In this document: positions 82-21,319 of the stretch, one piece after another
Numbering within the stretch: the first letter of the stretch is position 1
How the letters are laid out: each line of letters begins with the position of its first letter
Origin: Methanococcus maripaludis
GTDB taxonomy: Archaea; AGJL01; Methanococci; Methanococcales; Methanococcaceae
DNA length: 32,000 nt
Direction: 5' to 3'
Assembly: GCF_002945325.1 (NCBI RefSeq)
Contig: NZ_CP026606.1
Location: 150,001-182,000 of the forward strand
The notes under the pieces: generated by a model
Databases searched by the model: none
What the model was told of the DNA's origin: nothing
What the model saw: the letters and a program-made list of their open reading frames with translations, nothing else
Position numbers and translations under genes: made by a program

Positions 82-1263
82 TTAAATCATTTCAACAAAG
101 GCTTCAAGTCTCGTTTTTATCTGTTCTTTATCACTTTCTGAATAGTCTGTTTCTATTCTAATTATTGGAATTCCTAAATTTTTGAGTTCTTTTTCAATTA
201 ATGCACCTTCAACATTAAATGTGTGGCAGTATTGTAATGTATAATAAACAACACCATCTGCATTTTGTTCCTTTACAAGTTCTTTAATTCTTTCAATTCT
301 GCTATCATTTTTAAATGCAGATGCACAGTTGATTTTAAAGTATCTTTCTGCAAGGTCATCAATTGTGTATCCTTTAACCAAATTATCAAATTTTCTGGTT
401 CCAGTACATGTTTCTTCACCGACTACAAGTCCGCCGACTTCTTCGATAATGTCCACAATTTTGGTATTTCCTGCAACCATCGGGCATCCTGCAACCAGAA
501 TTCTTTTTCCAGCGTATCCTTCACCGTTTTTAACCCGTTCTTCGAGTTCAGATATTACTTCTTTCAAAATTGCGAGTCTATCTTTTATATCGAGTAAAAA
601 TGACCTTTGAAATATTTTTAATGCATCAGTTCCAGTTATTGGCGTTGGGATTTTGGATCTTAATTCATAAAGCTTGTGGGATAATATTCTTTCTTCATTT
701 TCTTCATCAATTGCTTCTTTTAATTTTTCTTCAGTAATCTTGTTTCCAGTAAATTTTTCCACGTAATCTTTGAAGTCGTAAACTTCTTTGAGCCATAATT
801 TATATGACCTTTCATCTTTAAAGTGTGGAAGATGCATAACATACATTTCTGACAGTTTTGCCATGTGTTCAAACATCTTTTTCTTTCCATCGCACGTTGT
901 TTCTCCAACAATAACATCTGAAGCTTCAAAGTAAGGGCAGGCTTTATCTTTTTTAAATCCGTATGAAGATTTAATCAGCGGACAGATACTTCTTGGCAGA
1001 TCTTCTTCTGCTGATGGAATGGTTGACTCTTTTCCACCACAAAGTCCGACAGGAATTGCATCAGCAGCACATATAATTTCAGTAGGCACGAATACACAAA
1101 ATCTACCAAATACTTTTTTTCCTTCGTCTTTTTCTCGATATAATTCCTCTTTTCTTTTTGAAAAAATTTCATCGAGTTTTTTGATACTTTTTAATTCGTC
1201 CAAAGTTTCACCGATTTTATAGTTTAAACTATCTTCTAAGATATTATTTAAATTATTTTTCAT
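82..1263 (-). CDS. 2-hydroxyacyl-CoA dehydratase / BcrC-BadD-HgdB family Fe-S protein (double-cubane-cluster-protein-like)
   Basis: Many conserved Cys lie in typical contexts ([63 protein letters not shown]). The C-terminal end [24 protein letters not shown] is typical of this family. The tracked ORF runs to 1449, but its first 62 codons are low-complexity and overlap the divergent MFS gene. I therefore place the start at ATG 1263 ([13 protein letters not shown]). Confidence 0.65.
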
Positions 1264-1423
1264 TATTTGTTGTGTTTGATATCCATTAGAATATCTATTA
1301 AATATATAATAACTACTAAAATCTAATACCATTATCAATATATATCGGTAATTAAATAATCCAATGAAGGTCTTAAGTTTTAAGATACCTGAAATTAAAC
1401 AATAACTATTTTTGAGGTCATAC

Positions 1424-2728
1424 ATGTTATCAAAGGACAACATCGGCAAAATGATGAAATACCGGTGGGTAATCTTTGCAGTTCTTGCGTTAGTTTACTT
1501 CTTCGTGTACTTTCACAGGGTATCTCCTGCAGTTATGGCTGGAGATCTTATGACAACGTTTGGAGTAGGGGCAACTTCAATGGGTCTACTCGGATCAGTT
1601 TATTTTTATGCATATGCATTAATGCAGATTCCTTCAGGGATAATGTCTGATAAATTCGGACCTAGAAGGGTCGTTGCTGTTTTTACACTTGTTGCAGCAG
1701 CAGGTGCAATTCTTACAGGTATTGCAACTGATTTTAACATGGTTATATTAGGAAGGCTTTTAATCGGTGTTGGTGTAGCTGCAGTATACATCCCGATAAT
1801 GAAAATGCTTTCAATCTGGTTTAGAAAAAACGAATTTGCTACTCAAAGTGGCGTTATGCTTGCAGTAGGAAACATTGGGGCATTATCCGCAGCAGCACCA
1901 CTTGCTTACCTTAATACATCATTAGGTTGGCAGACTGTATTCATGGGACTTGGTGTAGCATCAGTCGCTCTTGCAATTCTTTCATATATTGTTATTAGGG
2001 ATAAGCCATCAGAAATGGGATTCCCAAATATTGAAGATATTGAAGCTCAGGAAAATGGCGAAACTGTTTCAGCAGAAGCAAAACCTGCAGAAAACATATC
2101 TATTATGGATTCTATTAAAATGGTACTCGGTAAAAAATCATTCTGGCCCTTGGCAATATGGTTTTTCTTTTACTATGGATCATTAATGGCATACCAAGGA
2201 CTTTGGGCAGGCCCATACTTTAAAGATATTTTAGGTTGGGACAAAGCAACATATGCAAGCCTTTTAACGTTTATCGGAATTGGTTTGATCTTAGGATGTC
2301 CTGTTTCAGGATATCTCGCAGATAAAGTTTTAAAATCAAGAAAAAAGACATTAATTATCGGTACAGTAATGTACACATTATTATGGTTTGCAGTCTGGTA
2401 CTTTAACGGAATGGACAATCCATTATTCTATAAAATATTATACTTATTATTCGGATTCTTCGCAGGATTCTTCGTTGTATGCTACGGACAGGTGAAATCA
2501 TTATTTCCTATCTCAATAACAGGAACTTCCACGTCAATCCTCAATTTCTTCCCATTCTTTGGTGGTGCACTGCTCCAGCAAGTTTGCGGGTTGTTAATCG
2601 CAAGCTACGGGCTTAATGCATTAGGGGGATACACAAGTGCAGGATACCAGATGGCATGGTTATTACTTGCTGTTGGAATGGTTATTGCAACAATTTGCGT
2701 TTATTTCTCTGAAGAAAAAGGACTTTAA
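1424..2728 (+). CDS. MFS (major facilitator superfamily) transporter, 12 predicted TM segments with a central hydrophilic loop
   Basis: The sequence is hydrophobic and helix-rich, with an MFS loop signature ([16 protein letters not shown]-x-G). An acidic central loop ([20 protein letters not shown]) splits it 6+6. GAGGT lies 5 nt upstream of ATG 1424. ATG 1451 (MMKYRW) is an alternative start. Confidence 0.8.
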
Positions 2729-2795
2729 GTCCATTAAATTTTTTTCTTTTTTCATTTTTTAAAAATTTAAAAATAATTTAAACATGGTGGAATTT

Positions 2796-3659
2796 ATGAA
2801 AAAAACATTTTCATGTGTCAGTGACAAGTTAGAAAACATTCCAAAAGAATTAACTGAATCTAAAAATTTAAAATTTCCAAATGTACACGAAAATCTTATC
2901 GATATGGTGGAATTTTCAAAAATAATGAAAGAATATAGGAAAGACTTATTTTGTAGAGTTCCATTCTGTATGACCGTTGAAGCAGAATCATTGGGTGCTA
3001 AAATTAACATGGGCGATGAAAAATACGGCCCAAGAGCTAAAGAATACGCTTTTAAAAATTTAGATGAATTAGAATCCATAACACCAATTGATCTAACCTC
3101 AGGTAGGATTAAAACAGTTCTTGGTGCTATTCGTGAATTAAAAGAATCTGGTGAAATTCCAATTCTTGCAGTTGAGGGGCCATTTACTATATTTTCATCT
3201 TTGATAGATTCGACAGCATTTTATAAAGAACTTAGAAAAAATCCGGACCAAGCAAACGAATTTTTGAATTTTTTAGAGGATGAAATCGTAAAGTATATTC
3301 TTTCAGGAATTGAAAACGGGGCTAAAATTATTTCTTTTGGAGATCCTGCAGGAAGTATCGACATAGTGGGTCCAAAAGTATTTAGGGAATACAGCGGAAA
3401 AATTGCCAAAAATATTATAGAAAAAGTTAGATTAAAAGAAAAAAACTGTATTATTCATCTTTGTGGATTAACATCTGTTGCACTTGAAAATGAAGGAATG
3501 TGCAAATTTAATCCATTAAATTGCGATTCTGAAACATATGGGAAAGCAATTTATGAACTAATTCATGAAAATACAAAAACAAAAATTATTGGTCACAACT
3601 GTATAAAAAAATCAATCTATAAAATTCCAAAAAATACTGTCTGGGAAATAAAAGAATAA
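2796..3659 (+). CDS. Short, divergent URO-D/MtaA-family methyltransferase paralog
   Basis: It is collinear with the 342-aa paralog at 6404-7432 (VPFCMTVEAESLGAKINMG vs VPFCMTVEAEAFGAGVKMG; YKELRKNPDQANEF vs YKELRRKPDAAKEF; FGDPAGS vs ISDPSGT; IIHLCG vs IIHICG). It lacks the N-terminal TPKERL...DR.P segment and has a shortened C-terminus. GGTGG precedes ATG 2796; ATG 2784 is an alternative start. Confidence 0.65.
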   Translation: MKKTFSCVSDKLENIPKELTESKNLKFPNVHENLIDMVEFSKIMKEYRKDLFCRVPFCMTVEAESLGAKINMGDEKYGPRAKEYAFKNLDELESITPIDLTSGRIKTVLGAIRELKESGEIPILAVEGPFTIFSSLIDSTAFYKELRKNPDQANEFLNFLEDEIVKYILSGIENGAKIISFGDPAGSIDIVGPKVFREYSGKIAKNIIEKVRLKEKNCIIHLCGLTSVALENEGMCKFNPLNCDSETYGKAIYELIHENTKTKIIGHNCIKKSIYKIPKNTVWEIKE

Positions 3660-3664
3660 TTATT

Positions 3665-4573
3665 TTATAAATTATTAAATAATTCACTTATTGCTTCTTT
3701 TTCAAGCTCTTTTCCAATTATGCAAATTTTTTGGTCTTTTTTTGTGTTTAAAAGCTCCAACTTGCAATCATTTCCAACATAATTAAACTCCATTGTTTTA
3801 TCATCGATGTTTAAAAAACCCTTTCCACGCATTATCTGTCCATATTTACCACTTTTAAGTTCTAAAATTATATTTTCAATATCTTTTTCTTTAAAAGAAT
3901 CAGTAAATTCAAGTCCAATACTTGATACGCCTTTCATTGCAGCTTCAACGTTTCCACGATATATTTTACCAGAATTTTCAGAACTGTTGTCAAGAATTTT
4001 CAAAAATTCTTCTGGAGCCATAAATTCCCAGTTTTGAGTTACAATTAATGAATTAGGATTTAAATCCCTTAATGATAAAATAATTTTATCAATTTCTTGG
4101 TAATTCATAAACTGAGCTTTACTGATAATTAGTCTGTCTGCATTTTTTATTTGATCTTTAAAAAATTCGCCAAATCCTTCAACTTCTTCGAGATAATTTT
4201 CAGCATCAACTACGGTTGTGAGCGAGTTTATTTCAGAAATTTGTTTGATTTTTGGAAGACTCAATATCCCGATTATCTCACTTAAGAGCCCCATTCCTGT
4301 TGGTTCAACAATAATCCTGTCAGGTTCAAATTCATCTACGATTTTGCTTAACGCTTCGATAAAGTTGGACCTGATGCTACAGCAAATGCATCCTTGTTGA
4401 AGTTCGTATACTTCAAATCCTTCATTTTTGATAAGATCTCCGTCAATTGCAATTTCGCCAAATTCATTTTCAATAACAATTACTTTTTCGTTCCCACAGG
4501 CGTTTAAAAGATGTTTTATAAATGTCGTCTTTCCAGAACCCAAGTAGCCTGATACAACGTCGATTTTAACCAC
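3665..4573 (-). CDS. CobW/COG0523-family G3E P-loop GTPase (putative metallochaperone)
   Basis: It has a Walker A motif GYLGSGKTT, a metal-binding GCICCS (CxCC) motif and a C-terminal CobW_C-like segment (RGKGFLNIDDKTMEFNYVG). The start is GTG, preceded by GGTGAT. Confidence 0.85.
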   Translation of the reverse strand: MVKIDVVSGYLGSGKTTFIKHLLNACGNEKVIVIENEFGEIAIDGDLIKNEGFEVYELQQGCICCSIRSNFIEALSKIVDEFEPDRIIVEPTGMGLLSEIIGILSLPKIKQISEINSLTTVVDAENYLEEVEGFGEFFKDQIKNADRLIISKAQFMNYQEIDKIILSLRDLNPNSLIVTQNWEFMAPEEFLKILDNSSENSGKIYRGNVEAAMKGVSSIGLEFTDSFKEKDIENIILELKSGKYGQIMRGKGFLNIDDKTMEFNYVGNDCKLELLNTKKDQKICIIGKELEKEAISELFNNL

Positions 4574-4624
4574 AATATCACCAAATATAATAAATTTTAA
4601 TATTATTATTTCAAATACTAATTT

Positions 4625-6403
4625 TTAAAAATTTAAAGAATCAATGAACAATTTTTCATAGTTTTCTTTTGTCGAAAGTTCATAATATGTTATATCTTTA
4701 GAGACTGACTCCATTTCCGCTCGTGATTCTTTTGAAAGCAGACAAATTAAAGCACCGGTTTTAGAGGAATTTCCAATATATCTTATTTTTTTGCCAAGTT
4801 TTTCAGGTATGATTCCACTTCCAACGAGGCTTTCAACAGTTAAGTGTTTTCCAAACTGCCCTGCAATTATTACTTCATCAATTTCTTCCATTGTTAAATT
4901 ATTTTCATCCAAAAGTGCTAAAAATCCCGAAACTATAGCTGCTTTTGCCAGTTGAACCTGCCTTATGTCTTTTTGTGAAACTAATATTTCGGGATTTTTT
5001 GAGATCTGAACAAACTTTTTTGAATTTTTTTCTATTATCAAATTTTTATATTCATTATCTGAACCGTTTGAATTAATTAACCTGCCAGTTTTACCCACAA
5101 GGCCTGTTCTAACAATTTCAGATATTGAATCAAGTATTCCACTACCGCAAATTCCAACAGGATTCACATTTCCAATGACTTTTAATTCGATATTGTTTTC
5201 ATTGAATTTAACACATTCAATTGCGCCGTCTGCCGCCCTCATTCCGTAGCTTATATTCATTCCTTCAAGCGCAGGGCCTGCAGCACAGGAACATGATGAA
5301 AGAATACCTGCTTTTGAAAGCATTATTTCCCCATTTGTACCAATATCAATAAAGAGAACATTTTTTTCAGTTTTCAAAAGTTCAGAAACTATAACTCCTG
5401 CAACAATATCTGCTCCAATATACCCTGAAACTCCAGGTAAACAGTAAATTCTACCAAACGGAGAAATATTTATTCCAATATCGTTTGATAAGATGTTTTT
5501 CCCAGACAAAAATACTGGTAAATATGGAGATTTCCCAATCGATTCTGCGCTGATGTTCAATAAAAAGTGCATCATTGTAGTGTTTGCTGCAATTGAAACT
5601 TCGTAGATGTTTTCAACAGCAATTTTGTTCTGCGTTGCTAAATCAAAGATAAGTTTGTTTATTCCGGTAATTATTGCTTTATTTAATAATTCAAGCCCGT
5701 TTTCATTTTTATTTGCAAAATCGATTCGTGAAAGCACGTCTGAACCGTATTCTTTTTGAGGATTTATCATGGTTTCAGATGCAATTTCTTCCCCCTCTAA
5801 AATATCAATTAAAGATGCTACAACGGTAGTAGTTCCAATATCGATTGCAATTCCATATATTTTTTCATTGATTTTGGGTTCAATTCCAATTAATTTATCA
5901 TTTAAAAAAATTGAAGTAAGATTTCCTGTTTTAAACGATTTCTGCAAAGCTTTTAAACATTCAATATCAGATATTTCATCCACATTTAATTTAGTTTTAA
6001 CAATTTCTTCGTAATTATTTTTGTTTGATTCACATTCTGATAGATTGATGATTTTTTTTGTGATAGGCGGATTAATTTTTAAGTTTGGCATGTATCCGTC
6101 AGTTAAAATCTTGTGATTTTCATCCGTATTTAATAATTCAATTTTCACATTTCCAAACGCCTTTGTAAGGCAACTTAGGCGAACTCCCTGATCAATTTCA
6201 TCTTTTGAAAGATATTCAAGCTCTTCAGAAGATAGTGGACTGATTTCTCCACCAACAACTTTTACCTTACATTTTCCGCAGGTTCCAACTCCACCGCAAG
6301 GAACTTCTATTTTAATTCCATTTTTTTGAAGAATTTTAAAAATAAATTCCCCTTCTTTAAACTCAAATTTATTGTTATCATTAGTTATTTCTAGTATTGC
6401 CAT
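4625..6403 (-). CDS. Corrinoid reductive activase, RACo/COG3894 type (N-terminal [2Fe-2S] ferredoxin domain plus ASKHA ATPase domain)
   Basis: The N-terminus has PCGGVGTCGKCKV...RLSC (Cys-x5-Cys-x2-Cys...Cys), a plant-type ferredoxin motif. ASKHA phosphate motifs are present (GIAIDIGTTTVV and LFIDIGTNGEIML). The ATG abuts the upstream stop codon (TAAATG), suggesting translational coupling. Confidence 0.8.
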   Translation of the reverse strand: MAILEITNDNNKFEFKEGEFIFKILQKNGIKIEVPCGGVGTCGKCKVKVVGGEISPLSSEELEYLSKDEIDQGVRLSCLTKAFGNVKIELLNTDENHKILTDGYMPNLKINPPITKKIINLSECESNKNNYEEIVKTKLNVDEISDIECLKALQKSFKTGNLTSIFLNDKLIGIEPKINEKIYGIAIDIGTTTVVASLIDILEGEEIASETMINPQKEYGSDVLSRIDFANKNENGLELLNKAIITGINKLIFDLATQNKIAVENIYEVSIAANTTMMHFLLNISAESIGKSPYLPVFLSGKNILSNDIGINISPFGRIYCLPGVSGYIGADIVAGVIVSELLKTEKNVLFIDIGTNGEIMLSKAGILSSCSCAAGPALEGMNISYGMRAADGAIECVKFNENNIELKVIGNVNPVGICGSGILDSISEIVRTGLVGKTGRLINSNGSDNEYKNLIIEKNSKKFVQISKNPEILVSQKDIRQVQLAKAAIVSGFLALLDENNLTMEEIDEVIIAGQFGKHLTVESLVGSGIIPEKLGKKIRYIGNSSKTGALICLLSKESRAEMESVSKDITYYELSTKENYEKLFIDSLNF

Positions 6404-7432
6404 TTATTCTCCTCTTTTGGAGTTTTTACATGCCTGAACCATTGCTTGAATATTTTCTAACTTTGTTCTAACCCCAATTCCGCATGCAGGAGACAAAATA
6501 TCGACCCCAAATTTAATACATGCTCGACTCATTTTATCAATAGAATCAGGAGTTCCATTTTCAAGCGCAAATGTGCTGACGTTTCCCATGATTGCTTTTC
6601 CAGACACGTTTTCAACTACCTGTCCAACATCAGTAATTGAATCAAAGCTTATTGCGTCACTTTTTAATGAATTTATTTCTTCATAAACACTTTTCAATCT
6701 ACCGCAAATATGGATTATTGTTCCAGTTTCAGCCAAATCACTTGTTTCTTCAATTATTTTATTAATATAAGGAACTGCAAATTCTTTAAACATTTTTGGG
6801 CCCAATATCTCGCCAGTACCGCTTGGATCAGATATTGCCAAAACGTCTGCTCCTGCTTTTAGCTGTGCTTTTCCAAATTCGATTAAGTTTTCAGTTACAA
6901 AATCCATGAATTCTTTTGCAGCGTCGGGTTTTCTTCTAAGTTCTTTATAGTACGTTACAGGTTCCATTAAAGACGATGCAGTACTAACTGGACCTGTGAG
7001 ATTTGCAATAATGGGAACTTCTGAGTTTTTTTCGTTTAAAAGTTCTATTGATTCAAGAACGGTTTTTCCACGTCCCTCATCAATATTGATATGATTTAAT
7101 TTTTCATATTCAGTAACAGAATCTATTGGATAGTTTGTAACTCTTGGTTCAGTAATATCTGTACCCATTTTAACTCCTGCACCAAAAGCTTCGGCTTCTA
7201 CAGTCATGCAGAATGGAACACCATAGTTTTCAAACCCGCCATTTTCATACATTCCAATTGTAAGTTCAGCCATTTTTTCAGCATCGGTGTGTGCTTCTGG
7301 CCAATATATTCCAGTAATGTCCATGATATCTTTTGTAATCATATTCATCATGCCGCCCGGACATATGCACGGGATTCTATCAACTTCTTCTCCTTTGAGG
7401 GTTTTTGAGAGTCTTTCTTTTGGTGTTATCAT
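6404..7432 (-). CDS. MtaA/MtbA-like methylcobamide:CoM-type methyltransferase (URO-D family)
   Basis: The N-terminus ITPKERLSKTLKGEEVDRIP and the segment YWPEAHTDAEKMAEL are typical of MtaA/MtbA. An H-x-C (IIHICG) plus a downstream Cys (SPACG) fits the HxCxnC zinc motif. A GAGTGA RBS is present. Confidence 0.8.
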   Translation of the reverse strand: MITPKERLSKTLKGEEVDRIPCICPGGMMNMITKDIMDITGIYWPEAHTDAEKMAELTIGMYENGGFENYGVPFCMTVEAEAFGAGVKMGTDITEPRVTNYPIDSVTEYEKLNHINIDEGRGKTVLESIELLNEKNSEVPIIANLTGPVSTASSLMEPVTYYKELRRKPDAAKEFMDFVTENLIEFGKAQLKAGADVLAISDPSGTGEILGPKMFKEFAVPYINKIIEETSDLAETGTIIHICGRLKSVYEEINSLKSDAISFDSITDVGQVVENVSGKAIMGNVSTFALENGTPDSIDKMSRACIKFGVDILSPACGIGVRTKLENIQAMVQACKNSKRGE

Positions 7433-7553
7433 TAAATCACTCTTTTTATTTAAATTTTCAAATATAATGCGCCATTAAACTAAATTCTAAAAAAATCAAA
7501 CTAAAAATTTAAAAATTATAAAATCTGGGTGAATAACTTGATAATTTAGGTAC

Positions 7554-8645
7554 TTAGTCTTTGTATTTATCAAAACTAAGTAAATAGTCTAATTTTTCTT
7601 CAGTAACCGGCCATCCCATTTCCCTTGCAGTATCCATCATTGCATCAATGTTTTCAATAGGTACTTCTACTGGAAGGCTGCATCCTGACATGATCATGAA
7701 TCCTTTTTTAGCTTTCAATCCCTGTTTTGCACATTTAATTGTAGCTTTTCTAACGTCTTCTCTTGATCCTGCATACATAATTGCTGAAGGGTCAACATTT
7801 CCTGCAATAACCATTTTATCTCCAACGGTTTCTGCACATTTTTCCATATCTGCAACGTTATCAATGCTTAAAACATCTACGCCCATTTCTACAAGATCAT
7901 CCCAAATTGGATCCGTTATTCCACAAATGTGTATAACCAATTTTCCAGTTCTTGCTTTTATGTGGTCGATAAGTCTTTTTAAGTACGGTGCTGAAAATTC
8001 CCTAAAGTGTTTTGGACTTACAACAGTACATGATGAAAGAGGTTCTGAAATAGTAACTCCAACGCCTTTTTCCAAAACTGCATCGGTTAGTGCAATGCAA
8101 CTTTGTAGTGAAATTTCACAGAGTTTATGAACTGATTCAGGATCTTTTAAAAGCATTTTTGTCATTTTTTCTACGCCAATTAAAAAGAAAGCGTTTGTAA
8201 ATGGGCCTACAACTGAAGCAGTAACTCCAACTTCGCTTGCAATTTCATCCCTTACGATTTCAATTGCCCTTAAATGAACTGGAATTCTACCTTGTGTGTA
8301 TGGATCAATTACTTTTAATTTATCAAATTCTGACATGTCATTTATTGCAGGTTCTTCTAAATCTGCGGTATTATCTTCTGGTTTTCTAACTTTTGCGCCC
8401 ATTGCTTCTGAAACTAAAAATAAATCTGTGAAGATTCTTGCACCATCTGCCCCAAATCTTCTGTATGTTTTAATAATTGCATTAGCAAGCGCTTCTGGGT
8501 CGTCATTAAACTGTGAAATTTTGTAGCCTGCAATTCTTGCCATCCCATTTCCAATGTTTGGGTTGCATGCAACCCGGTCAGCGGGTTCGCCCTTAGCTTT
8601 AGCAGCAGCTCTTTGAGCAGGTGTCATTTTGTCGGGGTAATCCAT
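7554..8645 (-). CDS. Second URO-D/MtaA-family methyltransferase, adjacent to the corrinoid protein (candidate substrate:corrinoid methyltransferase)
   Basis: It has MTPAQRAAAKAKGEPADRVA (the MtaA-like N-terminal pattern), VIHICG and a downstream Cys (MSGCSLP). A GGAGAG RBS is present, and the gene starts 24 nt after the corrinoid protein gene. Confidence 0.75.
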   Translation of the reverse strand: MDYPDKMTPAQRAAAKAKGEPADRVACNPNIGNGMARIAGYKISQFNDDPEALANAIIKTYRRFGADGARIFTDLFLVSEAMGAKVRKPEDNTADLEEPAINDMSEFDKLKVIDPYTQGRIPVHLRAIEIVRDEIASEVGVTASVVGPFTNAFFLIGVEKMTKMLLKDPESVHKLCEISLQSCIALTDAVLEKGVGVTISEPLSSCTVVSPKHFREFSAPYLKRLIDHIKARTGKLVIHICGITDPIWDDLVEMGVDVLSIDNVADMEKCAETVGDKMVIAGNVDPSAIMYAGSREDVRKATIKCAKQGLKAKKGFMIMSGCSLPVEVPIENIDAMMDTAREMGWPVTEEKLDYLLSFDKYKD

Positions 8646-8669
8646 AATAATCTCTCCATACTGTTTAAA

Positions 8670-9329
8670 TTAACCTTTTAATTTTGTAACCAATTCTTTT
8701 GCAATTCTTGCAGATTTTGAAGCTTCTGGTGCATAGCCATCTGCACCAATTTTATCAGCAAAGCTTTGTGAGATTGGGCCGCCTCCAACCATCACCATTG
8801 TAGTTTCTTTCATTCCTTCTTCTTTTAACATGCCAATAACAACTTTCATATTGTCCATTGTAGTCGTCATCAGCGTTGAAAGACCAATGACATCTGCGCT
8901 TACTTCTTTAGCTTTTTTTATGAATTCTACAGGTGGAACATCCCTACCAAGATCATAAACTTCAAAGCCTTGTGTTTCGAGCATGATTTTAAATAAGTTT
9001 TTCCCAATATCATGGGTATCCCCTTCAACAACGCCAACAACTGCTTTAAATTTATTATCTGAATCTTCATACTTTAAATGAGGTTTTAAAATATCCAAGC
9101 CCACATACATTGCATCAGAACAGACTAATAATTCAGGAATAAAATATTCTCCTTCTTCGTAAAGTACCCCTGCCCTGTTCATTCCTTCTGCTAGCCCTTT
9201 TGTGATCCCATCAAAAGCATCAAATCCATTTTCGAGATATTTTTTAGATAATTCTTCTGTTTTTTCTTCATCCATATCAACAACGGAATCAGAAAGCTCT
9301 TGTAGTAGCTGTTCTTTCAATTCACTCAT
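8670..9329 (-). CDS. Methyltransferase cognate corrinoid (B12-binding) protein
   Basis: All parts of the classical cobalamin-binding signature are present: DxHxxG (GDTHDIGKN), SxL (GLSTLMTT) and GG (MVGGGP). An N-terminal helical cap domain is present, and the 219-aa size matches MtaC/MtbC/MtsB/MtpC-type proteins. A GAGGT RBS is present. Confidence 0.9.
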   Translation of the reverse strand: MSELKEQLLQELSDSVVDMDEEKTEELSKKYLENGFDAFDGITKGLAEGMNRAGVLYEEGEYFIPELLVCSDAMYVGLDILKPHLKYEDSDNKFKAVVGVVEGDTHDIGKNLFKIMLETQGFEVYDLGRDVPPVEFIKKAKEVSADVIGLSTLMTTTMDNMKVVIGMLKEEGMKETTMVMVGGGPISQSFADKIGADGYAPEASKSARIAKELVTKLKG

Positions 9330-9596
9330 TTTTGACCTCTAAAATTTAAATTTAAAAAAGGGTAATTAATCAATAAAACTACGTAAATAATATCTTTTAT
9401 AGTTTTCATGAAGAAACCTAATAATTAATAATTACATTAAAAAAACTAATATCTAATAATATTATGGTACGATATACATTAGAAAAATATATAAAAAAAT
9501 TACCCGAATTAAACCTTAAAAACTGTTAGCGAGTGCATAGTAATATATTATATCAAAATATATCCGTTTCTAATGTATTGTAATTAAGGTGTTATT

Positions 9597-11067: not shown

Positions 11068-12372
11068 TTATAGTAGTTCTTCAACTTTTTTAGATATTCT
11101 TTTTAATATTTCCCGATCTGCAAGCGTACTTTCAGGCGGATCAATTACTTTTTTAAGTTCCAATGGAACTCCATCCATCCTGTAGGCGGTTCCAGTATCC
11201 TCAACACCTGCAATCGTTGGCGGGAGAATTATATTTGCAAGAACTGAAGTTGGTGTTTCGTGAGGGTCTATGCAGATTAATGGAATTTTTGACATTCTTT
11301 TAACTGCATTCTGCGGAAAATGTGCTCCGGGGTCTGACGCGATATTTAGCATTGCATCTGCATCTTCTCTAAGTAAACTATCAGTTACACTCGTGTCTCC
11401 AGGGTTAAATTCTGGAAATCCTCTTGAATAGTCCACACATAACGGAAATCCACTGATCCAAGTACACACCTGATTGAAACCATTTACATTGTAGTGGCCC
11501 CTCATTGGAATCAGCGTAAATTTAGTTTGTGAATTTAAATCGATTACAAGTTCGATTGCAGTATCGATATTTCTATGCTTTCCAGCAGTATGCGTAACAC
11601 CCATTGCAAAGAAAAGTTCCCCATACTGTGCTTTTTTCAATATTTCAACAGTTTCATATATCATTTCTCTAGGGATCCCTGCTATTATTTCAGATTGAAG
11701 TTCAAAACCTTTTAAAGCAGACCTTATCGCACTTATAAGCTCATAATCCTTATGCGGTTCAACTTTTAAGTGAATGTCTGCTAATTTTGCAGTGTCACTT
11801 TCTCTTGGATCAACTACAATTAAAATTCGATCTTTTCTTCCGCGACCCCTAAAAAAGCCCCTTGGAAAAACTCCGTATCGGCTCATGTGTCTTGGGTGTG
11901 CGTGCATCGGGTTTGAACCCCAATAAATTACAACATCTGCCCTGTTTTTAACTTCTCCAAGCGTACATATGGGGTACCCAACATCCTGAAGTGCCCATAC
12001 ACTCGGGCCATGGCATACTTCGGCAGTGTTGCTTACAATTCCCCTTATTTTTTCAGCCAACTTCATACCTTCAATATGTGCGTGGCATTCTGTTGCAGAA
12101 AATCCATAAATAAGAGGTTTTTTCGCATTTACTAAAATTTCAGCAGTTTTTTCTATTGCAGTATCAAAGTCGATTTTTTTAAAATCATCTTTTTTGTTTT
12201 CCCGATAAAGCGGTTCAGTATGTCTTACTGCACCTTTTCGGTGAGTAAACTTGCTGTGACCGATTCTACATGCATTTCTTGTCTTTACAATATGTCCTGA
12301 TTCCACAAAACATTCAATGTCATCACAAAGAGTTCCGCAGAATGGGCATACTACATTTTTTATAACATCCAT
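11068..12372 (-). CDS. fwdB: Formylmethanofuran dehydrogenase subunit B-like molybdopterin/tungstopterin oxidoreductase, cysteine type
   Basis: It has an N-terminal CPFCGTLCDD Fe-S motif and the 434-aa size of FwdB/FmdB. Cys in GFSATECHAH lies in the region where Sec-type FwdB carries selenocysteine. A GGGTGA RBS is present, and the gene follows hdrA directly. Confidence 0.7.
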   Translation of the reverse strand: MDVIKNVVCPFCGTLCDDIECFVESGHIVKTRNACRIGHSKFTHRKGAVRHTEPLYRENKKDDFKKIDFDTAIEKTAEILVNAKKPLIYGFSATECHAHIEGMKLAEKIRGIVSNTAEVCHGPSVWALQDVGYPICTLGEVKNRADVVIYWGSNPMHAHPRHMSRYGVFPRGFFRGRGRKDRILIVVDPRESDTAKLADIHLKVEPHKDYELISAIRSALKGFELQSEIIAGIPREMIYETVEILKKAQYGELFFAMGVTHTAGKHRNIDTAIELVIDLNSQTKFTLIPMRGHYNVNGFNQVCTWISGFPLCVDYSRGFPEFNPGDTSVTDSLLREDADAMLNIASDPGAHFPQNAVKRMSKIPLICIDPHETPTSVLANIILPPTIAGVEDTGTAYRMDGVPLELKKVIDPPESTLADREILKRISKKVEELL

Positions 12373-12418
12373 TATTTCACCCTAAAAAATCACCCAATTT
12401 AAAAAAATAAAAAAGAAA

Positions 12419-14383
12419 TTAGTAGGAATCTTTAAACGCGCCTTCAATTTGTCCGTATATCTGGCTTGTTTTAAAGTGGGACTGTTCAAGTGCGCCACTT
12501 GGACATCCTGCTGCACAGGTTCCACAACCTTTACATAATGCTGAAAGAACTTCTGCTACAACTTTACCGTCTTTTTCAACGAATCTTGGAGCACCATATG
12601 GGCACTGCTGTACACAAATACCGCATGCACCACAGACATTTTCATCGATTGTTACAACGATAGGTTCAACCTGAACTTCCCCTTTTGCAAGAGGTATTGC
12701 AGCTCTTGATGCAGCCGCTGAACCTTGCGCAACAGATGAAGGAATATCTTTTGGACCCTGACATGCACCTGCTAAGTAGATACCGTCTGTTGCAGTATCA
12801 ACAGGTTTTAATTTAGGGTGTGCTTCCATGAAGAACCTGTCAGCAGACCTTGAAACACCGAGCAGTTTTTGTACTTCGTCAGCAGTTGATGTTGGAACCA
12901 TACCTACTGAAAGAACAACTAAATCGTATTCATTTTCAAAGATTTCACCTAAAAGGGTATCTTCTGACCTGATTATTGGATTGTCTCCATCAGGATTATC
13001 CAATACTTGTGCAGGTCTTCCACGGATAAATTTAATTCCATACTGTTTTGAACTTCTTTCGTAGAATTCTTCGTATCCCTTACCAAATGCCCTGATATCC
13101 ATGTAGTAAATATCAATATCTGTTTCAGGAGCTTTTTCTTTAATTAACTGCGAATTTTTCATTGCATACATACAGCATACATTTGAACAGTATTTTTTAC
13201 CGATTTTCGCATCTCTTGAACCAACACACTGAATAAATGCAATTCTTTTTGGTTTTTGACCATCACTTGGCCGGATTACCTTACCCATCGTTGGACCAGA
13301 AGCATTAATCATTCTTTCAAGTTCCATTGAGGTTATGACATTTGGAATTTTTCCGTATCCGTATTCTTCTTTTTCGGTTGGGTCATATGGATCGTATCCT
13401 ATTGCAGAAATGATTGTACCAACTTCTGCTTCAATGATTTCTGGTTTTTGACCGTAATCAATCGCTTGAGGTCCGCACACTTTTGCACACAATCCACAAT
13501 CAATACAGCTTTCTTTGTCAATTGTGTACTTTGCAGGAACTGCTTGTGGGAACGGCTTATAAATTGCTTTTCTAAGCCCAATTCCCATATCAAATTCGTT
13601 TGGAACAGATATAGGACATACTTCCTCACATGAACCGCATCCAGTACATTTTTCTTCAGATAAATATCTTGGTTTTTTCTCGATTTTTACCTTGAAGTTT
13701 CCAATGTATCCTTTTACATCTTTTACTTCTGAGTAGGAATAAAGCTTGATATTTGGGTGTTTTGCAACGTCAACCATTTTTGGAGCTAAAATACAGATCG
13801 AACAGTCGTTTGTTGGAAATACCTTATCTAACTGGGCCATTCTACCCCCAACTGATGGTGTTTTTTCAACAACAATTGTTTCGTATCCTGCATCCCCTAA
13901 ATCAAGTGCGGCCTGAATACCTGCAACCCCTGCTCCGATAACCATGGCTCTTTTGGTAACTGGAACGTTTAGATAATCTAAAGGTTCGAGCTGCCTTGCT
14001 TTTGCAACAGCCATCCTTACAAGGTCGTTTGCTTTTTCGGTAGCTTTTTCTTTTTCTTTCATGTGTACCCATGAACAGTGTTCACGAATGTTTGCAAATT
14101 CAAACAAAAATGGGTTTAAACCTGCTTCTTCTACACACCTTCTAAATGTAGGTTCGTGAAGTCTTGGGGAACATGCTGCAACAATTACCCTGTTTAATCC
14201 AAGTTCCTTGATGTCTTTTTTGATGAGTTCTTGCCCGGGATCTGCACACATGTACTTGTAATCTCTTGCAATCACGACGTTTTCGAGTCCTTCTGCAGTT
14301 CTTGCTACATTTTCGCAATCAACTACACCGCCAATGTTTACACCACAGTGGCAGACGTAAACTCCTATTTTTGGTTCTTCCAT
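12419..14383 (-). CDS. hdrA: Heterodisulfide reductase subunit A, cysteine type
   Basis: It has an FAD motif [19 protein letters not shown] and four CxxCxxCxxxC ferredoxin motifs. The N-terminus is [12 protein letters not shown], and [11 protein letters not shown] contains Cys only. I place the start at ATG 14383 after GGTGAT; the tracked ORF begins 4 codons earlier at a TTG. Confidence 0.9.
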
Positions 14384-14418
14384 AATTATCACCAATATCT
14401 GGCTTGAACTGTTAGTCC

Positions 14419-14434
14419 AAATATATATTTTAAT
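14419..14434 (-). promoter_or_regulatory. Candidate internal TATA box upstream of hdrA
   Basis: The minus strand reads AAAATATATATTTGG, about 40-45 nt upstream of the hdrA ATG, in the 78-bp vhcB-hdrA spacer. Confidence 0.3.
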
Positions 14435-14473
14435 ACCATTATTACATTTTCTAATAGCTACATCTATTAAAAA

Positions 14474-15667
14474 TTATTTCAAAGATAATGCGCTCTTTTT
14501 AGCCTTATCACAGGCTTCAATACATTTCAAACACATTACACAGAACCCTTCGAGAGGTTTTTCTGGTTTTCCTGTTAAGTTAAGCATGTCATAAGGACAC
14601 GTTTCAATACATTTTCCACAGGAATCACATAAATTAGGACTAAATTCGATTCTTTCGTATTCTTTACCATCGTGGATGATTTTACCAATCCTAAGTGCAT
14701 CGTTTGGACAGCTTTGAACACATGCGCCACATCGAATACACATTTTGAACTCGTTTGCTTTTTCAGTTTTTTTCCTGCTTGGCATTTCAAGTCCTTTTGG
14801 ATTTACCACATTTATTGCATTGTTTGGACATTTTATGGCACAAGGTCCGCAGTATGCACATTTTTCTTCATCCCAAACGATACCTTCATCAGTTATCGGT
14901 TTTGGAGATCCATATTCAACCACTAATTCAATTGCATCAACAGGACATGCTGCCATACATAATCCGCATGCAGGACATCCTTTTGGCGGAACTGCAACCA
15001 TTTCATTTAAAACAATTAAATCCCTTGGACATTTGTCAGTACAGTCGCCACATCCAATACATAAATCGCTGTCCACACTAAATTTGACAATATTTTTATC
15101 TCTTTTTGGTGATTTTTTGCCTGCGACGAAGATCGCGTTCCATGGACATGTTTGTGCACAGATACTACAGTATATACAGGAATTTTTGTCAACAACTGCT
15201 TTTTCGCCCTCTATTGAAAGTGCACCAACAGGGCATTCAGAAATACATACCCCACAGCCGACACAATCCTCGGTAACTGCAATAGGTTCTTTTGGTAATG
15301 TAATGTTTCTTTTAGCGGGTTCAACTACGCCTTCCATTCCAACATAGTCGTCGGGACATGCTTCAACACATTTCATACAGCCTACGCAGAAACCTTTTAA
15401 TTTATCATTTTCTATTTTGAGGTTATTTGGACAGACTTTAACACATTCACCACACAAATCGCACTTTGTAGGGAAATATTCGATCTGTTTAATAGTTTTA
15501 CCATTTAATTCAATTTCTCTTAAGTTTAATGCATCGTTTGGACATGCATTGACACAATTTCCACAAAGTTGGCATACTTTAAAGGGATTTAATTTTAAAG
15601 CTTCTGTAGGGCAGCTATTTTCACAAGCTTTACACATATAACAGTCTTCAGTGTTTATCTTGATCAT
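14474..15667 (-). CDS. vhcB: Polyferredoxin subunit of the F420-non-reducing hydrogenase
   Basis: By hand count there are twelve CxxCxxCxxxC(P) [4Fe-4S] motifs in 397 aa. It sits directly downstream of vhcA. Confidence 0.9.
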   Translation of the reverse strand: MIKINTEDCYMCKACENSCPTEALKLNPFKVCQLCGNCVNACPNDALNLREIELNGKTIKQIEYFPTKCDLCGECVKVCPNNLKIENDKLKGFCVGCMKCVEACPDDYVGMEGVVEPAKRNITLPKEPIAVTEDCVGCGVCISECPVGALSIEGEKAVVDKNSCIYCSICAQTCPWNAIFVAGKKSPKRDKNIVKFSVDSDLCIGCGDCTDKCPRDLIVLNEMVAVPPKGCPACGLCMAACPVDAIELVVEYGSPKPITDEGIVWDEEKCAYCGPCAIKCPNNAINVVNPKGLEMPSRKKTEKANEFKMCIRCGACVQSCPNDALRIGKIIHDGKEYERIEFSPNLCDSCGKCIETCPYDMLNLTGKPEKPLEGFCVMCLKCIEACDKAKKSALSLK

Positions 15668-15675
15668 GATATCCC

Positions 15676-17091: not shown

Positions 17092-17112
17092 TATATCACC
17101 GTATTTAGTATC

Positions 17113-18015: not shown

Positions 18016-18031
18016 AAAACCACCTTAATAG

Positions 18032-18454
18032 TTATTTAAGATTTTCATTCAAGGTGCACGGACCTAAAGCTTTTATTCTGTCGTAAATTTCGTTCATTTT
18101 AGTCTGGAATTTTTCACCTTCAGAAGCTGAAATCCATTCGTGGAGAACTCTTTCCCTGCCAATTCCAAGTTCGTCAAGCATGTCGTAGAGCATCATGACT
18201 CTTCTTTGCCATTTGTAGTTTCCTGCATCGTAGTGGCAATCTCCAAGGTGGCATCCACCTATAAAAACACCGTCTGCACCTTCTTTAAAAGCTTTTAATA
18301 TAAATGATGGTTCAATCCTTCCTGAACACATCACCCGTATTATTCTTATGCTTGGAGGGTACTGCATTCTACCAACTCCTGCTGTATCTGCACCACCATA
18401 GGTACACCAGTTGCAACAAAAGCCGACTATCTTTGGCTCCCATTCTTCAGACAA
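18032..18454 (-). CDS. vhcD: MvhD/VhcD-type hydrogenase delta subunit (Hdr-interacting 2Fe-2S protein), cysteine type
   Basis: It has [13 protein letters not shown] and [10 protein letters not shown] motifs and is 140 aa. The start is TTG, 4 nt after GAGGTGA. Confidence 0.85.
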
Positions 18455-20045: not shown

Positions 20046-20058
20046 ATACTGGTGAATC

Positions 20059-20559: not shown

Positions 20560-20569
20560 TGGTGATATA

Positions 20570-21298: not shown

Positions 21299-21319
21299 TT
21301 AAGTTTAGAGGTGTTAATT

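What the first reader, a model, noticed from the sequence alone, without database searches (positions are those of the whole stretch)
82..9329. Complete-looking corrinoid methyltransferase system in a Methanococcus-type (H2/formate) methanogen
SEEN: nine clustered genes. They are a B12-binding corrinoid protein (DTHDIG/SxL/GGG), three URO-D/MtaA-family paralogs that all keep an H-x-C-G motif (IIHICG, VIHICG, IIHLCG), and a COG3894/RACo-type ASKHA ATPase with a Cys-x5-Cys-x2-Cys 2Fe-2S domain. The rest are a CobW/COG0523 GTPase (GSGKTT, CICC), a 12-TM MFS permease and an HgdB/BcrC-type Fe-S protein. ESTABLISHED: corrinoid protein, MT, reductive activase and transporter form the parts list of methyl-X:corrinoid:acceptor systems. 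Examples are Mta/Mtb/Mts of Methanosarcinales, Mtv/Odm O-demethylases of acetogens and Mto of Methermicoccus. The trio of corrinoid protein, MtaA-like enzyme and MFS permease recalls the mtpCAP methylmercaptopropionate operon of Methanosarcina acetivorans. Methanococcales are regarded as growing only on H2/CO2 or formate. INFERENCE: the host may import a methylated, probably anionic, compound and pass its methyl group via the corrinoid protein to CoM (H2-dependent methyl reduction) or to an anabolic acceptor. No MtaB/MtmB/MtbB/MttB-type MT1 is present. One URO-D paralog, most likely the 363-aa one next to the corrinoid protein, would then have to activate the substrate, as MtsA or MtvB/MtoB do. 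The substrate and physiological role are unknown.
Basis: partly seen in the sequence, partly recalled or inferred. Interest (0 to 1): 0.78.

Follow-up and report, generated by a model that had tools for sequence, protein, structure and literature searches.

The report
Selenium-starvation methyl-selenide demethylase gene cluster
This is the already described, selenium-starvation-induced corrinoid methyltransferase cluster (Sdm, or type 1 mlp cluster) of Methanococcus maripaludis, which most likely strips methyl groups off methylated selenium to recover selenium and is not a hidden pathway for growing on methyl compounds.

Summary
The genes are real, but there are eight, not nine: a double-cubane reductase (DCCP), an MFS permease, a short URO-D paralog, a COG0523 GTPase, a RACo activase, 342-aa and 363-aa URO-D paralogs, and a corrinoid protein.

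Four of the eight proteins were looked up, and all four are 100% identical to Methanococcus maripaludis JJ. The locus is MMJJ_01600-01670. It lies beside the selenium-free (Cys) isoenzyme genes fwdB-hdrA-vhcBAGD and frcADGB.

Published RNA-seq shows all eight genes induced by selenium depletion, from +2.2 to +7.8 log2. The orthologous M. voltae genes sdmA/B/C were tied to dimethylselenide use in 2004. The cluster type was described in 2023 as a "type 1 mlp gene cluster", and a clostridial Mlp2 moved methyl from methylcobalamin to selenide in vitro.

My own work shows three URO-D lineages, each shared with Clostridia. It also shows synteny of seven of the eight genes with clostridial loci at 43-76% identity.

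The methylotrophy reading and the novelty claim are not supported. Still open are the methyl acceptor and the roles of the DCCP, the short paralog, the GTPase and the MFS.

The parts
82..1263 (-). Double-cubane-cluster (DCCP) anaerobic reductase, MMJJ_01600 by gene order. 393 aa from the ATG; other assemblies annotate 373 aa from a TTG at 1203.
   Evidence: NF040772 484.7 bits against cut-off 350; Pfam HGD-D 8e-120. Cys at 56, 75, 94, 124, 260/286, 313 and 346. +2.2 log2 under Se depletion. DCCP orthologues at 40-47% identity lie in 9 of 31 related bacterial clusters.
1264..1423 (.). Divergent promoter region between the DCCP and MFS genes.
   Evidence: Gene map. Holds three near-copies of AATATCTAATA. 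The regulatory role is inferred only.
1424..2728 (+). 12-TM MFS permease, MMJJ_01610, annotated 'SauU'. Resembles anion-type MFS families.
   Evidence: MFS_1 4e-53. Best partial NCBIfam matches are PgtP, galactonate, NarK and lactate transporters, all below cut-off. 12 hydrophobic segments. +6.3 log2 under Se depletion; the deletion affects only SeCN use. Absent from the bacterial clusters.
2796..3659 (+). Short URO-D/MtaA-family paralog (287 aa; ORF of 291 aa from 2784). Mlp1-type. MMJJ_01620.
   Evidence: URO-D 1e-32; PRK06252 182 bits, below its 244 cut-off. 100% identical to AVB75581. H225 and C227 are present, plus a conserved C273 in a GHNCIK motif. AF2 model pLDDT 89.9; best PDB match is MtaA 4AY7/4AY8. 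Homologues are about 290 aa in bacteria too. +4.84 log2.
3665..4573 (-). COG0523/CobW-family G3E GTPase, a putative metallochaperone. MMJJ_01630.
   Evidence: cobW 2e-41 plus CobW_C. True CobW TIGR02475 scores 115 against a cut-off of 332. GSGKTT and CICC present. +4.05 log2. Present in 8 of 31 bacterial clusters and in M. voltae, absent in M. maripaludis C5.
4625..6403 (-). RACo/Ram-type ATP-dependent reductive activase of corrinoid proteins, with an N-terminal 2Fe-2S domain. MMJJ_01640.
   Evidence: Fer2, Raco_middle and RACo_C_ter. AcsV NF040756 scores 434.7 bits, below its 800 cut-off. C36, C42, C45 and C78. +4.72 log2. 47-54% identical to the closest clostridial and deltaproteobacterial cluster activases, 36-46% in the more distant clusters.
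6404..7432 (-). 342-aa MtaA-like methyltransferase, Mlp3-type. MMJJ_01650, labelled 'SdmC' by Funkner et al. Likely unloads the methyl-corrinoid.
   Evidence: PRK06252 493 bits against cut-off 244. The MtaA and MtbA equivalogs are not reached: 265 of 400 and 249 of 600. MtaA 4AY7 E 1e-55. H241, C243 and C317. Groups with MtaA in the NJ tree. 64-68% identical to the closest bacterial orthologues. +5.59 log2.
7554..8645 (-). 363-aa URO-D-family methyltransferase, Mlp2-type. MMJJ_01660. Co-orthologue of M. voltae SdmB and SdmC. Likely methyl-selenide:corrinoid methyltransferase (MT1).
   Evidence: URO-D 2e-88; TIGR01463 209 bits, below its cut-off. 75% and 65% identical to the two adjacent M. voltae PS paralogs AAQ55471 and CAE02690. 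H239, C241 and C322. +5.76 log2.
8670..9329 (-). Corrinoid (B12-binding) methyl-carrier protein SdmA. MMJJ_01670.
   Evidence: B12-binding_2 plus B12-binding. DxHxxG, SxL and GGG motifs. 81% identical to the M. voltae PS deposit P0255 and 70-76% to clostridial cluster proteins. +7.80 log2, 223-fold.
9330..9596 (-). sdmA promoter region, with a conserved block TTTCTTCATGAAAACTATAAA at 9396-9416. The block has a palindromic TTCATGAA core next to a TATA-like box.
   Evidence: The block is conserved upstream of sdmA in JJ, C5 and M. voltae and is unique in the window. Function is inferred.
11068..18454 (-). Context: fwdB-hdrA-vhcB-vhcA-vhcG-vhcD, the selenium-free (Cys) isoforms expressed under Se starvation.
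   Evidence: NCBIfam: FwdB 626 bits; HdrA; VhuB-, VhuA(+VhuU fused)-, VhuG- and VhuD-like. All are uninterrupted ORFs. +9 to +14 log2 under Se depletion in JJ.
18813..22168 (+). Context: frcADGB, the selenium-free F420-reducing hydrogenase.
   Evidence: frhA 724 bits, frhD, FrhG and frhB. Strongly induced by Se depletion.

Best explanation
The cluster is the M. maripaludis version of the Sdm system, or type 1 mlp gene cluster. It is a selenium-salvage device switched on by selenium starvation.

Proposed sequence of events:
1. Selenium depletion induces three transcription units: sdmA-mlp2-mlp3-RACo-cobW, MFS-mlp1, and the DCCP gene. (Shown in the literature.)
2. The zinc enzyme Mlp2 (363 aa) binds the Se atom of dimethylselenide or methylselenol and transfers the methyl group to Co(I) on SdmA. 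This ultimately frees selenide for selenophosphate and selenocysteine synthesis. (Inferred; backed by M. voltae genetics and by the reverse reaction of a clostridial orthologue in vitro.)
3. The MtaA-like Mlp3 (342 aa) unloads CH3-Co(III) onto a thiol. The acceptor could be coenzyme M, but it is more likely a ubiquitous thiol, because near-identical orthologues work in bacteria that lack CoM. (Inferred.)
4. RACo uses ATP and its 2Fe-2S cluster to re-reduce inactive Co(II). (By family.)
5. The COG0523 GTPase probably metallates the zinc enzymes. (Inferred.)
6. The DCCP may reduce oxidised or dimeric selenium species, the short Mlp1 may widen the substrate range, and the MFS may import an anionic selenium species such as selenocyanate. 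(Speculative.)
For: - Identity with strain JJ: the four looked-up proteins are 100% identical to AVB75581, AVB75584, AVB75585 and AVB75586. Gene order matches MMJJ_01600-01670, followed by fwdB, hdrA, vhc and frc.
- Published RNA-seq: all eight genes rise under Se depletion by +2.20, +6.30, +4.84, +4.05, +4.72, +5.59, +5.76 and +7.80 log2. The fold change falls along each inferred operon.
- Orthology to M. voltae: SdmA 81%; SdmB and SdmC 75% and 65%. Papers read here report that Niess & Klein tied these genes to dimethylselenide use and that an sdmC deletion lost it.
- ClMlp2 demethylates methylcobalamin with selenide (Km about 80 uM) 4.3-fold faster than with sulfide.
- His-Cys-Cys zinc ligands, which favour a soft S or Se ligand, are present in the 363-aa and 342-aa proteins.
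- Three URO-D clades are each shared with bacteria. The order Corr, 363, 342, RACo, (CobW), 291, DCCP is syntenic in Clostridia.
- The DCCP family NF040772 occurs almost only in SelD-positive genomes, 955 of 970.
- The cluster lies next to the Cys-isoform genes of the selenium regulon.
Against: - No enzyme of this locus has been assayed, and no M. maripaludis mutant in the methyltransferase genes is reported in the papers I could read.
- The 2004 M. voltae paper itself was not available, so its results are second-hand.
- ClMlp2 was assayed only in the reverse direction, with free methylcobalamin and a low kcat.
- The cluster is induced even without added methyl-selenium, so the true substrate could be endogenous.
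- The methyl acceptor is unknown.
- The short paralog may lack a canonical third zinc ligand. phmmer and MAFFT disagree on this.
- No DCCP activase lies next to the DCCP in M. maripaludis.
- About 10% of type 1 clusters in other organisms appear to act on sulfur, not selenium.
Confidence: 0.8

Rival explanations
1. One reading: a methylotrophic module. An imported methylated, probably anionic, compound donates its methyl via the corrinoid protein to CoM, supporting H2-dependent methyl-reducing methanogenesis or methyl assimilation.
For: - The parts list resembles MtsA/B and MtpCAP: corrinoid protein, MtaA-like enzymes, activase and MFS.
- The 342-aa protein is the closest of the three to MtaA (tree).
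- RefSeq names it MtbA.
- ClMlp2 has weak activity with sulfide.
Against: - The cluster is almost silent in selenium-replete cells and is induced up to 223-fold by selenium depletion. That is not the regulation expected of a catabolic pathway.
- The MtaA and MtbA equivalog cut-offs are missed by wide margins.
- The MFS is not part of the conserved cluster, and its deletion has no effect on methylated selenium sources.
- Orthologues at 64-68% identity function in CoM-free Clostridia.
- Methanococcales are not known to grow on methyl compounds.
Confidence: 0.06
2. Internal recycling rather than scavenging. The system reclaims selenium from methylselenide that forms inside the cell, non-enzymatically, from SAM and selenide. 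The methyl group may be returned to methionine.
For: - The cluster is induced in M. voltae and C. ljungdahlii without added methyl-selenium.
- The core of the cluster encodes no dedicated transporter.
- This is the proposal of Kountz & Balskus, their Fig. 8.
Against: - Exogenous dimethylselenide and dimethyldiselenide are used by Methanococcus at low concentrations.
- This differs from the best explanation only in where the substrate comes from, so the two are compatible.
Confidence: 0.1
3. A methyl-sulfur or methionine-salvage variant of the type 1 mlp cluster, acting on methylthio compounds rather than selenium.
For: - A subset of about 10% of type 1 clusters occurs in organisms without selenium traits and lies beside sulfur or methionine genes.
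- The His-Cys-Cys zinc site does not distinguish S from Se.
Against: - The host is a selenoprotein user, and the cluster is selenium-regulated and adjacent to the selenium-regulon genes.
- The cluster includes a DCCP, which is linked to SelD.
- No sulfur or methionine salvage genes lie nearby.
Confidence: 0.03

Closest known systems
SdmABC of Methanococcus voltae (Niess & Klein 2004, J Bacteriol 186:3640)
   Same: - Orthologous corrinoid protein (81%) and Mlp2-type methyltransferase (75% and 65%).
- The extended gene set is the same in M. voltae PS: corrinoid, URO-D, URO-D, URO-D, RACo, CobW, MFS, short URO-D.
- Both are induced by selenium deprivation.
   Different: - M. voltae has two tandem Mlp2 paralogs (SdmB and SdmC). 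M. maripaludis has one.
- The gene labelled 'SdmC' in M. maripaludis (MMJJ_01650, 342 aa) belongs to a different lineage, Mlp3. Its M. voltae orthologue is the unnamed 356-aa gene.
- The M. maripaludis locus adds a DCCP gene and abuts the vhc and frc genes. The M. voltae locus, as far as seen, has neither.
Type 1 mlp gene clusters (Kountz & Balskus 2023, PMC10418091), e.g. Clostridium ljungdahlii Mlp1-3
   Same: - Core of Mlp2, Mlp3, corrinoid protein and Ram/RACE activase, with an optional Mlp1 and an accessory DCCP.
- No H4folate methyltransferase.
- His-Cys-Cys zinc site.
- Seven of the eight genes are syntenic with clostridial loci at 43-76% identity.
   Different: - The host is an archaeal methanogen in which CoM is available as a possible acceptor.
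- An MFS permease is attached, found in 0 of 31 bacterial loci.
- No adjacent DCCP reductase (BcrAD_BadFG ATPase), whereas two bacterial loci I checked have one.
MtsA/MtsB and MtpCAP methyl-sulfide systems of Methanosarcina
   Same: - A URO-D-family zinc enzyme acts directly on a methylated chalcogen.
- There is a small corrinoid protein.
- MtpP is also an MFS.
   Different: - Those systems feed methanogenesis from sulfur compounds and belong to methylotrophic hosts.
- The window proteins do not reach the MtaA or MtbA equivalog scores.
- Regulation here is by selenium, not by substrate.
- Direct comparison with the MtsA and MtpA sequences was not done.
MtaABC / MtbA methanol and methylamine systems
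   Same: - MT2-like 342-aa enzyme, E 1e-55 to MtaA 4AY7.
- Corrinoid protein of the MtbC/MtaC family.
- ATP-dependent reductive activation.
   Different: - No MtaB-, MtmB-, MtbB- or MttB-type MT1.
- The activase is the bacterial RACo type with 2Fe-2S, not the archaeal RamA type (TIGR04270 scores 123 against a cut-off of 500).

Membership tests
Sdm system (M. voltae sdmA/B/C) | Corrinoid protein orthologous to SdmA | tested here: met
   81% identity over 100% of the length to the M. voltae PS deposit P0255 and to genomic M. voltae proteins. It occupies the same position at the head of the cluster.
Sdm system (M. voltae sdmA/B/C) | MtaA-like methyltransferase orthologous to SdmB/SdmC | tested here: met
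   The 363-aa protein is 75% identical to AAQ55471 and 65% to CAE02690/AAQ55472, which are adjacent genes downstream of sdmA. They fall in the same clade in the NJ tree.
Sdm system (M. voltae sdmA/B/C) | Induction by selenium deprivation | not testable with these tools
   Taken from the literature. RNA-seq of strain JJ, whose four looked-up proteins are identical to the window's, shows +2.2 to +7.8 log2 for MMJJ_01600-01670.
Sdm system (M. voltae sdmA/B/C) | Genetically required for use of dimethylselenide as a selenium source | not testable with these tools
   Reported for M. voltae sdmA and sdmC, second-hand through. No M. maripaludis methyltransferase mutant appears in the papers read.
Type 1 mlp gene cluster | Encodes at least an Mlp2 and an Mlp3 (distinct URO-D lineages), optionally an Mlp1 | tested here: met
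   Three clades, each containing Methanococcus and bacterial cluster members. Clade names were assigned by inference: SdmC is an Mlp2, the 342-aa type is nearest the CoM methyltransferases, and the short type is the often-absent Mlp1. The C. ljungdahlii reference sequences were not compared directly.
Type 1 mlp gene cluster | Co-located corrinoid protein and Ram/RACE activase; no H4folate methyltransferase | tested here: met
   Pfam and NCBIfam. No MtrH- or AcsE-like match in any ORF I scanned.
Type 1 mlp gene cluster | His-Cys-Cys zinc ligands in the Mlps | tested here: inconclusive
   Met for the 363-aa protein (H239, C241, C322) and the 342-aa protein (H241, C243, C317) against MtaA H237, C239 and C316. 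For the short paralog, H225 and C227 are present. The third ligand is either missing (phmmer alignment) or supplied by the conserved C273 (MAFFT).
Methylotrophic-methanogenesis MT2 (MtaA / MtbA equivalogs) | Score above the NCBIfam equivalog cut-off | tested here: not met
   342 aa: MtaA_Meth 265.5 against 400; MtbA 248.7 against 600. 363 aa: 166 and 124. 291 aa: 119 and 94. Only the broad subfamily PRK06252 is passed, and only by the 342-aa protein.
Methylotrophic-methanogenesis systems (Mta/Mtm/Mtb/Mtt) | Dedicated MT1 of the MtaB, MtmB, MtbB or MttB family | tested here: not met
   No such family among the larger ORFs of the window that I scanned.
True uroporphyrinogen decarboxylase (HemE) | TIGR01464 equivalog score | tested here: not met
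   78, 113 and 41 bits against a cut-off of 303. The 'uroporphyrinogen decarboxylase' annotations are family-level only.
Double-cubane cluster protein (NF040772) | Equivalog score and multi-Cys ligand pattern | tested here: met
   484.7 bits against 350. Cys at 56, 75, 94, 124, 286, 313 and 346 give a similar pattern but not the exact published spacing; the regex did not match.
Double-cubane cluster protein (NF040772) | Partner ATP-dependent reductase (BcrAD_BadFG / DCCP-R) nearby | tested here: not met
   Absent within 6 kb beyond the DCCP gene in M. maripaludis. Present directly after the DCCP in bacterial loci L003 and L026. It may be encoded elsewhere in the genome; I did not check.
CobW proper (cobalamin biosynthesis) | TIGR02475 equivalog score | tested here: not met
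   115 bits against 332. It is a generic COG0523 GTPase with a P-loop and CxCC motif.

The most novel reading that the evidence does not exclude
Under selenium starvation the induced system also turns over methyl-chalcogen compounds (DMSe, and more weakly DMS or methanethiol), with Mlp3 passing the methyl to coenzyme M. A supposedly obligate H2/formate methanogen would then make some methane from methyl groups, which is facultative H2-dependent methyl reduction. In parallel, the MFS and DCCP pair would form a separate reductive branch that imports and cleaves anionic or oxidised selenium species such as selenocyanate, methylseleninate or diselenides.
Probability: 0.07. Interest if true: 0.7.

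Novelty: already known. Interest (0 to 1): 0.22.

Why it matters
The cluster explains how a selenoprotein-dependent methanogen can tap volatile methylated selenium when selenite runs out. It also links Methanococcus to a clostridial gene cluster found in more than 100 anaerobic genera, including gut and toxigenic clostridia.

It does not overturn the view that Methanococcales are non-methylotrophic. The physiological context has been in print since 2004, with further work in 2023 and 2024.

What remains worth doing is biochemical: the real methyl acceptor, and the roles of the DCCP, the short Mlp1 paralog, the COG0523 GTPase and the MFS. M. maripaludis JJ, with its genetics and selenium reporter strain, is a good place to do it.

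Tried and rejected
I could not survey Methanococcales that way. I used exact-protein look-ups instead for M. voltae PS, M. maripaludis C5 and another M. maripaludis strain.
- The 2004 M. voltae paper (PMC415765) is not held.
- I searched for an operator shared by the sdmA, DCCP/MFS and vhc/frc promoters. AATATCTAATA gives 9 hits against 2.5 expected, but most hits lie in AT-rich spacers, which whole-window shuffles do not model. I treat this as weak.
- The conserved sdmA promoter block occurs nowhere else in the window.
- The sigma-70 and terminator scan is irrelevant for an archaeon and was at background level.
- Rfam gave no match in the window.
- The small ORFs at 9597-10797 have no significant Pfam family, even at E of 5 or below.
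- The published DCCP 7-Cys regex did not match exactly.
- My first idea, that the short paralog simply lacks the third zinc ligand, was weakened by the conserved GHNCIK cysteine. It could not be settled because model coordinates are not exposed.
- A first, crude hydropathy count for the MFS was noisy. A cleaner peak-picking gave 12 segments.

Full report
**Observation**

The count is eight, not nine. The genes are:
- a double-cubane-cluster reductase at 82-1263(-), NF040772, 484.7 bits against a cut-off of 350.
- an MFS permease at 1424-2728(+), with 12 hydrophobic segments arranged 6+6;
- a short URO-D paralog at 2784/2796-3659(+);
- a COG0523 GTPase at 3665-4573(-);
- a RACo activase with a 2Fe-2S domain at 4625-6403(-);
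- URO-D paralogs of 342 aa at 6404-7432(-) and 363 aa at 7554-8645(-);
- a corrinoid protein at 8670-9329(-).

All quoted motifs are present: DTHDIG, SxL, GGG, GSGKTT, CICC, C-x5-C-x2-C, IIHICG, VIHICG and IIHLCG. None of the larger ORFs of the window that I scanned belongs to the MtaB, MtmB, MtbB or MttB families.

**Whose DNA it is and what lies next door**

I looked up four of the eight proteins: the 363-aa, 342-aa, 219-aa and 287-aa products. All four are 100% identical to AVB75585, AVB75584, AVB75586 and AVB75581 of Methanococcus maripaludis. The spacing of those accession numbers and the gene order match MMJJ_01620-01670 of strain JJ.

Downstream lie fwdB, hdrA, vhcB, vhcA (with a fused VhuU-like tail), vhcG and vhcD. 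Divergent from these is frcADGB. All are uninterrupted ORFs. These are the cysteine isoforms that M. maripaludis expresses only when selenium is scarce.

**What is already published**

- Kountz & Balskus 2023 (PMC10418091) define 'type 1 mlp gene clusters'. [quoted passage not shown] They occur in more than 100 anaerobic genera, including Methanococcus.
- The same authors show that C. ljungdahlii Mlp2 transfers methyl from methylcobalamin to selenide, with a Km of about 80 uM and 4.3-fold faster than to sulfide.
- They cite Niess & Klein 2004, who linked M. voltae sdmA, sdmB and sdmC to dimethylselenide use under selenium deprivation.
- Funkner et al. 2024 (PMC11097638) measured the selenium regulon of strain JJ. 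Their Table S3 lists, under selenium depletion: MMJJ_01600 (HgdB) +2.20; 01610 (SauU/MFS) +6.30; 01620 (UroD) +4.84; 01630 (G3E GTPase) +4.05; 01640 (DUF4445) +4.72; 01650 +5.59; 01660 +5.76; and 01670 (corrinoid) +7.80 log2.
- Deleting the MFS changed nothing on DMSe, DMDSe, methylseleninate, Se-methylselenocysteine, selenomethionine or selenate. It raised the reporter 5-fold on selenocyanate.

**What I added**

1. Transcription units. Gene spacing suggests three units: sdmA-363-342-RACo-GTPase on the minus strand, MFS plus short URO-D on the plus strand, and the DCCP alone. The published fold changes fall along each unit in that order.

2. Three URO-D lineages. An alignment and NJ tree of the Methanococcus paralogs, MtaA (4AY7) and bacterial cluster members resolves three clades.
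 - The 363-aa type includes both tandem M. voltae genes of 362 and 361 aa, which are AAQ55471 and CAE02690/AAQ55472.
 - The 342-aa type has MtaA as nearest outgroup and includes the 356-aa M. voltae gene.
 - The short type includes the 307-aa M. voltae gene.
 - So M. voltae SdmB and SdmC are both Mlp2-type, as Kountz & Balskus also say.
 - The 'SdmC' label on MMJJ_01650 (342 aa) is positional, not orthologous.

3. Bacterial relatives. Among the 31 bacterial loci whose Mlp2 matches the window protein over its best aligned segment at 47-64% identity, the neighbours within 10 kb are: corrinoid protein in 30, 342-aa type in 25, short type in 21, RACo in 18, DCCP in 9, COG0523 in 8, and MFS in none.
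 - Several loci have the same order as the window. Examples are Hathewaya massiliensis (L016), H. proteolytica (L026) and Clostridiales mt11 (L002).
 - Identities in the closest of these loci are about 70-76% for the corrinoid protein, 57-64% for Mlp2, 64-69% for Mlp3, 51-54% for RACo, 40-44% for the GTPase, 46-49% for the short paralog and 42-47% for the DCCP.
 - Methanococcus sequences sit inside bacterial radiations in the tree. This fits acquisition of the cluster as a unit from Clostridia. The tree is NJ only and has no support values.

4. Zinc ligands. The 363-aa protein has H239, C241 and C322. The 342-aa protein has H241, C243 and C317. These align with MtaA H237, C239 and C316.

5. 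The short paralog.
 - It is a conserved family of about 290 aa in bacteria too, so it is not a pseudogene.
 - Its AlphaFold model is confident (pLDDT 89.9), and its best PDB match is MtaA.
 - It keeps H225 and C227 and has a conserved C273 in a GHNCIK motif.
 - Whether C273 is the third ligand is unresolved.

6. Strain and species differences.
 - M. maripaludis C5 has the cluster elsewhere in the genome and without the GTPase.
 - M. voltae has no DCCP within the stretch I saw.
 - Two bacterial loci have a BcrAD_BadFG ATPase, the DCCP reductase, right after the DCCP. M. maripaludis has none nearby.

7. DCCP and selenium. Haft's comparative genomics places 955 of 970 strong NF040772 members in SelD-positive genomes. 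That fits a selenium-related role for this DCCP.

**How it most likely works**

- Shown, in the literature: selenium depletion induces the locus, and Methanococcus uses DMSe and DMDSe as selenium sources.
- Inferred, with genetic and enzymatic support from orthologues: Mlp2 (363 aa) is the methyl-selenide:Co(I)-corrinoid methyltransferase that loads SdmA and liberates methylselenol and then selenide.
- Inferred from family: RACo repairs Co(II) using ATP.
- Inferred: Mlp3 (342 aa) unloads CH3-Co(III) onto a thiol. However, orthologues 64-68% identical operate in Clostridia, and Clostridia do not synthesise CoM (established knowledge). I therefore rate a ubiquitous acceptor, or a second demethylase role, at least as likely as CoM.
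- Speculative: the COG0523 GTPase loads zinc into the Mlps. The DCCP reduces diselenide, seleninate, selenoxide or selenocyanate species. The MFS imports an anionic selenium species.

The architecture and the choice of the 363-aa paralog as substrate activator are right. Three parts are not supported: the idea of a cryptic methylotrophic or methyl-reducing capacity, the 'anionic methyl donor' import, and the statement that substrate and role are unknown.

The regulation, the neighbourhood, the MFS mutant phenotype and the bacterial distribution all point to selenium salvage. The MtaA, MtbA and HemE equivalog thresholds are not met, so 'MtbA' and 'uroporphyrinogen decarboxylase' are over-specific names.

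**Novelty and interest**

This is already known as a system and as a locus in this very strain. The unresolved points are the acceptor, the accessory proteins, and whether the substrate is endogenous or exogenous. These are biochemical details of a described system. Interest is low to moderate.

Noticed in passing
window 11068-22168: The cluster directly abuts the selenium-free isoenzyme genes: fwdB-hdrA-vhcBAGD on the minus strand and frcADGB on the plus strand. Together they form a contiguous block of about 22 kb of selenium-starvation-induced genes. In M. maripaludis C5 (L082) and M. voltae PS (L081) no vhc, frc, hdrA or fwdB genes appear in the ~10 kb flanks I saw.
   Followed up: partly
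window 9396-9416 (-); L082 about 9240-9260; L081 about 9090-9110: A block TTTCTTCATGAAAACTATAAA, with a palindromic TTCATGAA core next to a TATA-like box, is conserved upstream of sdmA in JJ, C5 and M. voltae and is unique in the window. It is a candidate promoter or operator of the sdm operon.
   Followed up: partly
window 1290-1328, 9448-9458, 18471-18481, 18644-18654, 18784-18794: AATATCTAATA with up to one mismatch occurs 9 times against 2.5 expected. Seven of the nine hits lie in the three selenium-regulated promoter regions (DCCP/MFS, sdmA, vhc/frc). This may simply reflect AT-rich spacer composition. It was not tested against other regulon promoters.
   Followed up: partly
window 6404-7432 versus L081 11388-12473 and 12703-13773: Nomenclature mismatch. 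MMJJ_01650 (342 aa) is called 'SdmC' in the M. maripaludis literature, but M. voltae SdmC is an Mlp2-type protein orthologous to the 363-aa gene. The true M. voltae counterpart of the 342-aa gene is the unnamed 356-aa URO-D.
   Followed up: yes
L082 7644-8872 and 14048-17657: M. maripaludis C5 lacks the COG0523 GTPase gene in its cluster. It also carries two adjacent MFS fragments of 140 and 256 aa upstream of sdmA, probably a disrupted second permease.
   Followed up: no
L081 7743-8462 (-); window 9597-10797: M. voltae has an ArsR/HTH_5-type regulator gene divergent from sdmA. At the equivalent place, M. maripaludis has three small ORFs of 114, 101 and 88 aa with no significant Pfam family. 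These three are absent from the published list of selenium-regulated genes.
   Followed up: partly
L003 16108-16866; L026 9211-9969; L086 14508-20751: Two bacterial clusters I checked carry a BcrAD_BadFG ATPase, the presumed DCCP reductase, right after the DCCP. M. maripaludis has none within 6 kb; an RNase H-like gene converges on the DCCP instead.
   Followed up: partly
window 22763-29768: A run of large secreted or surface-type proteins: NosD/beta-helix (665 aa), beta-helix plus S-layer-like C-terminus (416 aa), a transglutaminase-like protein, and a papain-like protease with an S-layer-like C-terminus (715 aa). They are followed by a Vut_1 transporter and an AIRC-domain protein. All are unrelated to the finding.
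   Followed up: no
Genome-contig collection: The representative-genome scan returned no Methanococcus locus for a protein that the protein database holds from many M. maripaludis and M. voltae genomes. Absence from that collection should not be read as absence from Methanococcales.
   Followed up: no
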